NCBI RefSeq assembly: GCF_033153115.1
Contig: NW_026889772.1
Location: forward strand, 3,286,001 to 3,350,000
Reading direction: 5' to 3'
Source: Saccostrea echinata
Lineage: Eukaryota
DNA: 64,000 nucleotides
Shown: one piece after another, positions 14,450 to 17,278 of the stretch
Numbering within the stretch: the first letter of the stretch is position 1
Layout: every line of letters begins with the position of its first letter
Notes under the pieces: generated by a model
The model's database searches: none
Seen by the model: only the letters and a program-made list of their open reading frames with translations
What the model was told of the DNA's origin: nothing
Made by a program: the position numbers and the translations under genes

Positions 14450-17278
14450 TGTTATAAGCTACCTATTGTTATAACTCCCCCTGAGAGGGGCCTCCTCTTG
14501 TACTGAGAATTATGTTGTGTTATAAGCTACCTATTGTTATAACTCTCCCCTGAGAGGGGCCTCTTCTTGTACTGAGAATTCTGATTCTGTTGTGTTATAA
14601 GCTACCTACTGTTATAACTCTCCCCTGAGAGGGGGCTCCTATTGTACTGAGAATTCTGATTCTGTTGTGTTATAAGCTACCTATTGTTATAACTCTCCCC
14701 TGAGAGGGGCCTCTTCTTGTACTGATAATTCTGATTCTGTTGTGTTATAAGCTACCTATTGTTATAACTCTCCCCTGAAAGGGGCCTCCTCTTGTACTGA
14801 GAATTCTGATTCTGTTGTGTTATAAGCTACCTATTGTTATAACTCTCCCCTGAGAGGGGCCTCTTCTTGCACTGATAATTCTGATTCTGTTGTGTTATAA
14901 GCCACCTATTGTTATAACTCTCCCCTGAAAGGGGCCTCCTCTTGTAATGAGAATTCTGATTCTGTTGTGTTATAAGCTACCTATTGTTATAACTCTCCCC
15001 CTGAGAGGGGCCTCTTCTTGTACTGAGAATTCTGATTCTGTTGTGTTATAAGCCACCTATTGTTATAACTCTCCCCTGAAAGGGGCCTCCTCTTGTACTG
15101 AGAATTCTGATTCTGTTGTGTTATAAGCTACCTATTGTTATAACTCTCCCCTGAGAGGGGCCTCTTCTTGTACTGAGAATTCTGATTCTGTTGTGTTATA
15201 AGCTACCTACTGTTATAATTCTCCCTTGAGAGGGGCCTCCTCTTGTAATGAGAATTCTGATTCTGTTGTGTTATAAGCTACCTATTGTTATAACTCTCCC
15301 CCTGAGAGGGGCCTCTTCTTGTACTGATAATTCTGATTCTGTTGTGTTATAAGCCACCTATTGTTATAACTCTCCCCTGAAAGGGGCCTCCTCTTGTACT
15401 GAGAATTCTGATTCTGTTGTGTTATAAGCTACCTATTGTTATAACTCTCCCCTGAGAGGGGCCTCCTCTTGTACTGAGAATTCTGATTCTGTTGTGTTAT
15501 AAGCTACCTATTGTTATAACTCTCCCCTGAGAGGGGCCTCTTCTTGTACTGAGAATTCTGATTCTGTTGTGTTATAAGCTACCTACTGTTATAACTCTCC
15601 CCTGAAAGGGGCCTCCTCTTGTACTGAGAATTCTGATTCTGTTGTGTTATAAGCTACCTATTGTTATAACTCTCCCCTGAGAGGGGCCTCCTCTTGTAAT
15701 GAAAATTCTGATTCTGTTGTGTTATAAGCTACCTATTGTTATAACTCTCCCCTGAGAGGGGCCTCCTCTTGTACTGAGAATTCTGTTGTGTTATAAGCTA
15801 CCTATTGTTATAACTCTCCCCTGAGAGGGGCCTCTTCTTGTACTGAGAATTCTGATTCTGTTGTGTTATAAGCTACCTATTGTTATAACTCTCCCCTGAG
15901 AGGGGCCTCCTCTTGTAATGAGAATTCTGTTGTGTTATAAGCTACCTATTGTTATAACTCTCCCCTGAGAGGGGCCTCTTCTTGTACTGATAATTCTGAT
16001 TCTGTTGTGTTATAAGCTAACCTATTGTTATAACTCTCCCCTGAGAGGGGCCTCTTCTTGTACTGATAATTCTGATTCTGTTGTGTTATAAGCTAACCTA
16101 TTGTTATAACTCTCCCCTGAGAGGGGCCTCTTCTTGTACTGAGAATTCTGATTCTGTTGTGTTATAAGCTACCTATTGTTATAACTCTCCCCTGAGAGGG
16201 GCCTCTTCTTGTAATGAGAATTCTGATTCTAGTGTGTGATAAGCTACCTATTGTTATAACTCTCCCCTGAGAGGGGCCTCCTCTTGTAATGAGAATTCTG
16301 ATTCTGTTGTGTTATAAGCCACCTATTGTTATAACTCTCCCCTGAAAGGGGCCTCCTCTTGTAATGAGAATTCTGATTCTGTTGTGTTACAAGCTACCTA
16401 CTGTTATAACTCTCCCCTGAAAGGGGCCTCCTCTTGTAATGAGAATTCTGATTCTGTTGTGTTACAAGCTACCTACTGTATAACTCTTCCCTGAGAGGGG
16501 CCTCCTCTGAGAGGGGCCTCCTCTTGTAATGAAAATTCTGATTCTGTTGTGTTACAAGCTACCTACTGTATAACTCTCCCCTGAGAGGGGCCTCCTCTTG
16601 TAATGAGTATTCTGATTCTGTTGTGTTATAAGCTACCTACTGTTATAACTCTCCCCTGAGAGGGGCCTCCTCTTGTACTGAGAATTCTGTTGTGCTATAA
16701 GCTACCTATTGTTATAACTCTCCCATGAGAGGGGCCTGTTTTTGTAATGAGAATTCTGATTCTGTTGTGTAATAAGCTACCTACTGTTACAATTCTCCCC
16801 TGAGAGGGGCCTCCTCTTGTAATGAGTATTCAGATTCTGTTATGTTATAAGCTACCTACTGTATAACTCTCCCCTGAGAGGGGCCTCCTATTGTACTGAT
16901 AATTCTGTTGTGTTATAAGCTACCTATTGTTATAACTCTCCCCTGAGAGGGGCCTGTTCTTGTAATGAGAATTCTGATTCTGTTGTGTAATAAGCTACCT
17001 ACTGTTATAATTCTCCCCTGAGAGGGGCCTCTTCTTGTACTGAGAATTCTGATTCTGTTGTGTCTTAAGATACCTACTTTTATAACTCTCCCCTGAGAGG
17101 GGCCTCCTCTTGTAATGAGTATTCAGATTCTGTTGTGTTATAAGCTACCTACTGTTATAATTCTCCCCTGAGAGGGGCCTCCTCTTGTAATGAGAATTCT
17201 GATTCTGTTGTGTTATAAGCTACCTACTGTTATAACTCTCCCCTGAGAGGGGCCTCTTCTTGTAATGAGAATTCTGAT
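14450..17278 (-). repeat. 75-bp minisatellite, about 38 copies, derived from the 3' end of gene 1 exon 2 plus its splice donor
   Basis: Plus-strand unit GTTATAAGCTACCTAYTGTTATAACTCTCCCCTGAGAGGGGCCTCYTCTTGTAMTGAGAATTCTGATTCTGTTGT, period 75 (e.g. 14521 to 14596). The terminal copy is coding sequence (QNSHYKKRPLSGESYN). A degenerate edge continues to about 14390. Confidence 0.97.

What the first reader, a model, noticed from the sequence alone, without database searches (positions are those of the whole stretch)
14450..17278. 2.8-kb, 75-bp minisatellite made from a coding exon end, with donor-positive and donor-negative variants
Seen: the last ~50 nt of gene 1 exon 2 plus ~25 nt of intron are repeated about 38 times, filling over half of the intron. 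The functional copy reads AACA|GTAGGT. Most central copies read AACAATAGGT (GT lost), while GT-retaining copies cluster near the exon (about 16390-17230) with a few scattered further out. The unit is 25 codons long and has an in-frame TAG just after the donor, so use of any downstream copy would introduce a premature stop. Each unit also carries a CCCCT-GAG-AGGGG hairpin and a GTTATAAC palindrome. Inference: expansion favoured the splice-dead variant, or selection purged competing donors.
Basis: partly seen in the sequence, partly recalled or inferred. Interest (0 to 1): 0.7.

Follow-up and report, generated by a model that had tools for sequence, protein, structure and literature searches.

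The report
Splice-donor minisatellite in an oyster intron
In a rock-oyster gene, the end of an exon and its splice signal are repeated 38 times, the assembled transcripts use only the first signal, and the loss of the signal in most far copies is likely the spread of one mutated copy rather than selection, so this is likely an ordinary case of a repeat type already known from humans, lancelets and chickens.

Summary
The array is real: 37.9 copies of 75 bp (51 nt exon end, 24 nt intron start), filling 53% of a 5.2-kb intron. Contigs from three probable RNA runs (two studies) join the first donor, ACA|GTAGGT at 17227, straight to the acceptor at 11995. GT is kept in 9 of 11 exon-proximal copies and 3 of 26 distal ones. 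The selection reading is not supported. A non-donor variant (CAT/CAG) shows the same gradient. The distal block is half as diverged, as after a recent expansion. The copies most likely to compete, next to the exon, keep GT. All 37 copies keep a second GT 4-5 nt downstream. Such arrays recur in this genome, and ten with Pfam-supported exons keep GT in 103 of 105 copies. Across 22 arrays, majority loss occurs in 2, against 3.1 expected by chance. The kind is known (human F7, CBS; lancelet mirages; chicken exon stuttering), and this scan noted it before in this genome and others. One lead remains: a Lys/Arg difference between exon alleles matches a common variant among the copies, which hints at exchange between array and exon.

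The parts
14447..17278 (-). 75-bp minisatellite, 37.9 copies, first unit spanning the exon/intron boundary
   Evidence: single locus in the genome search, 27 matches all inside the array
17228..17278 (-). exonic 51 nt of the first unit (codes ...QNSHYKKRPLSGESYN)
17222..17227 (-). authentic 5' splice site ACA|GTAGGT, phase 1, weak
   Evidence: contigs of X1, X3, X4 join it to 11995; U1 duplex -6.9 kcal/mol against -12.0 for CAG|GTAAGG
17218..17223 (-). second GT 4 nt downstream (TAG|GTAGCT), phase 2, kept in all copies, not seen used
   Evidence: U1 duplex -6.1
17220..17222 (-). in-frame TAG met by any transcript that reads past the first donor
16401..17152 (-). exon-proximal block, copies 2-12: heterogeneous (pairwise distance 0.078), GT in 9 of 11; the two AT copies lie in a duplicated three-unit block
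   Evidence: (period 218)
14466..16326 (-). distal block, copies 13-38: homogeneous (0.037), GT in 3 of 26
14401..14435 (-). eroded remnant beyond the array end, also AT-type
17257..17257 (-). exonic Lys/Arg site (AAG here and in X1, AGG in X3 and X4); the same A/G variant splits the copies 15:22
   Evidence: P0002 has Arg
17228..18087 (-). second coding exon (RS-rich)
18214..18365 (-). first coding exon (ATG at 18344)
11996..17227 (-). host intron, 5232 nt
9810..11995 (-). last coding exon; acceptor TTCTTTGTAG|

Best explanation
A 75-bp stretch across a splice donor is repeated 38 times, the assembled transcripts splice at the first copy and so remove the rest as intron, and the GT-to-AT change most likely arose once and spread as a passenger when one unit type expanded. 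Shown: the array, the junction used, the gradient, and a two-block structure. Inferred: origin by local tandem duplication, growth by unequal crossing-over or conversion, a younger expansion of the distal block from a unit that carried both AT and CAG, and an exon-side edge left out of homogenisation. Taken from mammalian work, untested in oyster: the most upstream donor wins. Rare read-through transcripts would meet the TAG and probably be removed by nonsense-mediated decay.
For: Junction: X1, X3 and X4 contigs run through the exon without gaps and pass to the last exon; none enters the intron; models P0002 and P0004 have the same junction peptide. Passenger: only 3 of 75 columns have a minor allele of 25% or more; CAT/CAG has the same gradient (8 of 11 vs 7 of 26, rank p 0.002) as the donor G (p 0.004). 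Distal block: distance 0.037 vs 0.078; 0.58 vs 2.45 rare variants per unit, p 0.0007. No purge elsewhere: 103 of 105 copies keep GT in 10 arrays behind Pfam-supported exons, 243 of 257 in 21 plausible arrays; majority loss in 2 of 22 arrays vs 3.07 expected. A DEAD-box gene array keeps GT in 29 of 29 copies, 24 of them CAG|GTAAGT, stronger than the predicted first donor. Precedent: PMC1557585, PMC3087553.
Against: The donor G is the most changed position of this array (25 of 37 copies, 2.8 expected; chance about 0.05 for this array alone), and this array is an outlier among its neighbours. Its true donor is weak, so leakage could matter more here. The third common variant (AAG/AGG) shows no gradient (p 0.57). 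The RNA evidence is low-depth contigs from runs only guessed to be RNA; contigs drop rare forms, so low-level use of copies is not excluded. Donors of the comparison arrays are predicted, not RNA-checked. One haplotype only.
Confidence: 0.8

Rival explanations
1. Selection against competing donors: the authentic donor is weak, downstream GT copies leak into stop-containing transcripts, and alleles rich in AT copies were favoured.
For: Donor G is the most changed column; weak donor (PWM 1.0 vs 8.8 for the consensus; U1 -6.9); in human IFI6 and CBS the next copies are used (PMC1557585 introduction).
Against: In those human cases the nearest copies are the ones used, and here they keep GT (9 of 11). 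The +4 GT of similar score stays in all copies. CAT/CAG shows the same gradient. Neighbouring arrays, some with weak donors, are not purged.
Confidence: 0.1
2. The array regulates expression: copy number or the number of GT copies tunes the share of transcripts sent to decay, as a splicing-linked VNTR.
For: Geometry fits decay (stop upstream of the junction); splicing-associated tandem repeats exist in humans (PMC10078293, search listing only).
Against: No contig of 3 covering runs uses a copy; no conservation data; arrays of this kind recur behind unrelated exons.
Confidence: 0.06
3. Assembly artefact, or a mobile-element repeat that happens to abut the exon.
For: No DNA run covered the locus (X6: nothing laid), so length is unverified.
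Against: Units differ in structured ways and the unit is the exon's own coding end, conserved as protein in other oysters; the unit matched only this locus (a lower bound).
Confidence: 0.04

Closest known systems
Human F7 intron 7 37-bp VNTR, with IFI6 (6-16), CBS intron 13, lamin B2 and PDGF intron 4 minisatellites (PMC1557585; read: abstract, synopsis, introduction, 12 passages)
   Same: First unit spans the exon/intron boundary, donor reiterated into the intron, only the most upstream donor used in F7, lamin B2 and PDGF.
   Different: Larger array (38 vs 5-9 copies in F7), mostly exon-derived unit, two thirds of copies have lost the GT; length polymorphism not shown here.
Lancelet 'mirage' minisatellites (Adh3, globins BflGb6 and BflGb9, PMC3087553, 7 passages read; PGBD5 and troponin C, PMC3902484, 1 passage)
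   Same: Tandem copies of an exon/intron boundary; 'many, but not all' repeats keep splice signals; regular splicing undisturbed; boundary units left out of homogenisation.
   Different: Mollusc; in my sample only the donor side is enriched, while lancelet mirages occur at both boundaries.
Chicken 'exon stuttering' (PMC12954441, 12 passages read)
   Same: Lateral part of an exon with its splice site copied through the intron; many introns per genome.
   Different: There tied to GC-rich dot chromosomes and shown to vary in length; here an AT-rich genome, clustered in some genes, variation untested.

Membership tests
Exon/intron boundary minisatellite (F7 type, mirage, exon stuttering) | tandem array whose first unit spans a real exon/intron boundary | tested here: met
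Exon/intron boundary minisatellite (F7 type, mirage, exon stuttering) | splice signal reiterated in many, not necessarily all, copies | tested here: met
   12 of 37 copies keep GT
Exon/intron boundary minisatellite (F7 type, mirage, exon stuttering) | normal mRNA uses the authentic donor | tested here: met
   3 of 3 runs with a contig over the junction; contigs, presence only
Exon/intron boundary minisatellite (F7 type, mirage, exon stuttering) | local origin, not a dispersed repeat | tested here: met
   all 27 matches inside the array (lower bound)
Exon/intron boundary minisatellite (F7 type, mirage, exon stuttering) | length variation between alleles | not testable with these tools
   one haplotype; no DNA run covered it; no orthologous locus found
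Splicing-regulatory VNTR (CBS, IFI6 type) | downstream copies used at a measurable rate | tested here: inconclusive
   none seen in low-depth contigs, which drop rare forms
Array purged of pseudo-donors by selection | GT lost more than comparable bases, beyond shared descent | tested here: not met
   same gradient at a non-donor site; 2 of 22 arrays with majority loss vs 3.07 expected; about 0.05 for this array alone

The most novel reading that the evidence does not exclude
The intronic copies act as a reservoir that rewrites the coding exon end: the Lys codon in this exon allele was carried in from the array by conversion or unequal crossing-over, so donor-side arrays, which are frequent in some oyster genes, feed amino-acid variation into proteins and put the one working donor at risk of being overwritten by an AT copy.
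Probability: 0.2. Interest if true: 0.5.

Novelty: new member of a known kind. Interest (0 to 1): 0.17.

Why it matters
By itself little: a tolerated repeat of a described kind. Its use is as material. Oyster genes carry many such arrays with donors of different strength, a natural series for testing outside mammals whether the first donor wins and whether pseudo-donors are under selection; my sample says they are not purged. If exchange with the exon is real, these arrays are a local source of coding variation. They will also disturb read mapping and PCR genotyping at exon ends.

Tried and rejected
Alternative true donor at +4 (TAG|GTAGCT): wrong phase and not in the contigs. Functional hairpin: z -0.8 and -1.4, 44 and 22 of 200 shuffles fold as well; the stem lies in the codons for Pro-Leu-Ser-Gly. 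Orthologous intron: metagenome scan found no relative; run X6 gave no cover; no listed holder is on record as RNA. Protein family: no Pfam match for P0001 at E 0.01; Atlas hits under 0.9, one cluster with CCDC34 on 37% of members, a lead only; the source label 'RBBP6-like' is not supported by a domain. Exon finder: the first two versions were weak; the third found only about 35 exons outside arrays, so array counts are lower bounds and no per-exon rate is given. 'Pseudo-donors are conserved': 9 of 10 arrays intact vs 5.3 expected (p 0.007), but 12 of 21 vs 9.6 (p 0.17) in the wider set; not claimed. Literature on such arrays in oysters: two searches listed none by title; the library lacks most subscription journals. 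No supplements were read.

Full report
Observation. TRF gives 14447-17278, period 75, 37.9 copies. On the minus strand there are 38 donor-position sites, the first at 17227. The unit is 51 exon and 24 intron bases and the array fills 2781 of 5232 intron bases. Twelve of 37 copies keep GT: 9 of 11 in copies 2-12, 3 of 26 in copies 13-38 (rank p 0.004, runs p 0.04). Reading past the first donor meets TAG at 17222-17220. Eleven of 37 intervals are not 75 nt. Every copy keeps a second GT 4-5 nt downstream.

Gene and true donor. The last exon found 23 relatives; those with names are bivalves. P0001, labelled Saccostrea echinata, is 100% identical over the region searched; it may come from this genome and is not independent. 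P0002 (S. cucullata) and P0004 (unnamed, close to the Magallana protein P0003) have the same junction peptide; P0003 has one extra residue there. At the acceptor, 3 of 4 runs had a contig with a loose end at 11995 that reads as the exon end (X2 did not reach it). At the donor, 3 of 4 runs had a contig running through the exon without gaps and passing to the last exon (X6 gave no cover). These are two studies, depth 3.5-14.5, RNA by guess. They show the first donor used; they cannot exclude rare use of copies. The protein has no Pfam family.

Why the gradient is not evidence of selection. Copies share descent. Three of 75 columns are highly polymorphic. One non-donor column, CAT/CAG, has the same polarity as the donor (8 of 11 vs 7 of 26, rank p 0.002); the other, AAG/AGG, has none (p 0.57). 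The distal block is half as diverged as the proximal one (0.037 vs 0.078) and has fewer rare variants (0.58 vs 2.45 per unit, p 0.0007). The two proximal AT copies sit in a duplicated three-unit block. The eroded remnant beyond the far end is AT-type too. One G-to-A change followed by expansion accounts for this (inference). With the 5' end of U1 taken from this genome, the true donor pairs at -6.9 kcal/mol and the +4 site, kept throughout, at -6.1: a weak donor with a near-equal neighbour that was not purged.

Test on other arrays. I sampled 1.864 Mb of the genome, partly around the window, so not at random. In 1.064 Mb there were 161 arrays of period 20-200; 14 (including this one) began at a predicted exon end with score 20 or more, against 2.6 for random positions; at the acceptor side 4 against 4.2. 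In a further 0.8 Mb, 93 arrays gave 4 against 1.4 and 1 against 3.0. The exon finder is crude and uses splice weights recalled from memory. Ten donor-side arrays follow exons with Pfam matches at E 0.01 or better (five in a NUP210-like gene, three MCM, two DEAD-box; 24 peptides scanned); they keep GT in 103 of 105 copies. Of 27 aligned candidates I kept 21 besides this array as plausible; they keep GT in 243 of 257 copies, 43.9 losses expected from matched bases. Dropped by judgement: four doubtful ones (GT kept in 2 of 3, 24 of 32, 1 of 6, 3 of 3 copies) and one with the donor outside the unit; the 41-bp window array was not aligned. With this array included, majority loss is 2 of 22 against 3.07 expected. 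In the same window a nuclear-receptor gene has a 99-bp array keeping CAG|GTAAGG in 4 of 5 copies.

Mechanism. Duplication across a donor is tolerated if the most upstream donor is chosen, as shown for F7 minigenes (PMC1557585); the copies then leave with the intron. This would also explain the donor-side bias in the sample (inference). The array then turns over like other minisatellites; concerted evolution that spares boundary units is described for lancelet mirages (PMC3087553). Confidence 0.8. Selection on a weak donor 0.1, regulation through decay 0.06, artefact 0.04.

Known kind. Human F7, IFI6, CBS, lamin B2, PDGF; lancelet mirages, where many but not all repeats keep splice signals; chicken exon stuttering. 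I found the F7 paper by search; the mirage and stuttering papers came as leads from earlier scan notes, which report the same kind in this genome and others, and I read the passages myself. Two searches listed no oyster paper on this by title, which is weak evidence of absence.

Remaining lead. At 17257 the exon has AAG (Lys) here and in X1, AGG (Arg) in X3 and X4; P0002 has Arg; the copies split 15:22 between the same two letters and the copy next to the exon has AGG. Sharing suggests exchange between exon and array, direction unknown; recurrent mutation is not excluded, and X3 and X4 carry a different organism code.

Verdict. Observation confirmed, selection not supported, new member of a known kind, interest 0.17.

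Noticed in passing
window 55599-56207 (-): 99-bp x 6.2 array from the end of a nuclear-receptor exon; 4 of 5 downstream copies keep CAG|GTAAGG, the last has lost it.
   Followed up: partly
window 57052-57493 (-): 41-bp x 10.8 array starting at the end of the preceding exon of the same gene; the true donor here is uncertain and the later copies seem not to carry it.
   Followed up: no
L110:8468 to L028:4164 (G000:C23 about 3.18-3.21 Mb): A NUP210-like gene has at least five donor-side arrays, one of 75 bp x 19 with GT in 18 of 18 copies.
   Followed up: partly
L012-L014 (G000:C23 3.369-3.388 Mb): An MCM-family gene has three Pfam-supported donor-side arrays and two candidate acceptor-side arrays.
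   Followed up: partly
L020 (G000:C23:3447138-3448663): DEAD-box gene array of 50 bp x 30: predicted first donor CAT|GTAAGT, 24 of 29 copies carry the stronger CAG|GTAAGT; a good test of first-donor choice.
   Followed up: partly
1.86-Mb sample of G000: Arrays are enriched at donor sides, not acceptor sides, and cluster in a few genes; GT may be kept more often than matched bases (p 0.007 in 10 arrays, 0.17 in 21).
   Followed up: partly
window 17257: Exonic Lys/Arg difference between runs equals a common variant among the intronic copies.
   Followed up: partly
window 22422 and 18365 (-); 23646-24206 (+): An upstream exon is joined to 18365 in run X3; it lies head to head with a DUF4532 exon, possibly sharing a promoter.
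   Followed up: partly
window 18213 and 17227 (-): Both coding-region introns open with the same weak A|GTAGGT donor.
   Followed up: no
L111, L112 (G000:C29 39.33 Mb; also C159, C313): U1 snRNA genes lie in tandem arrays with a spacing of about 2.14-2.15 kb.
   Followed up: no
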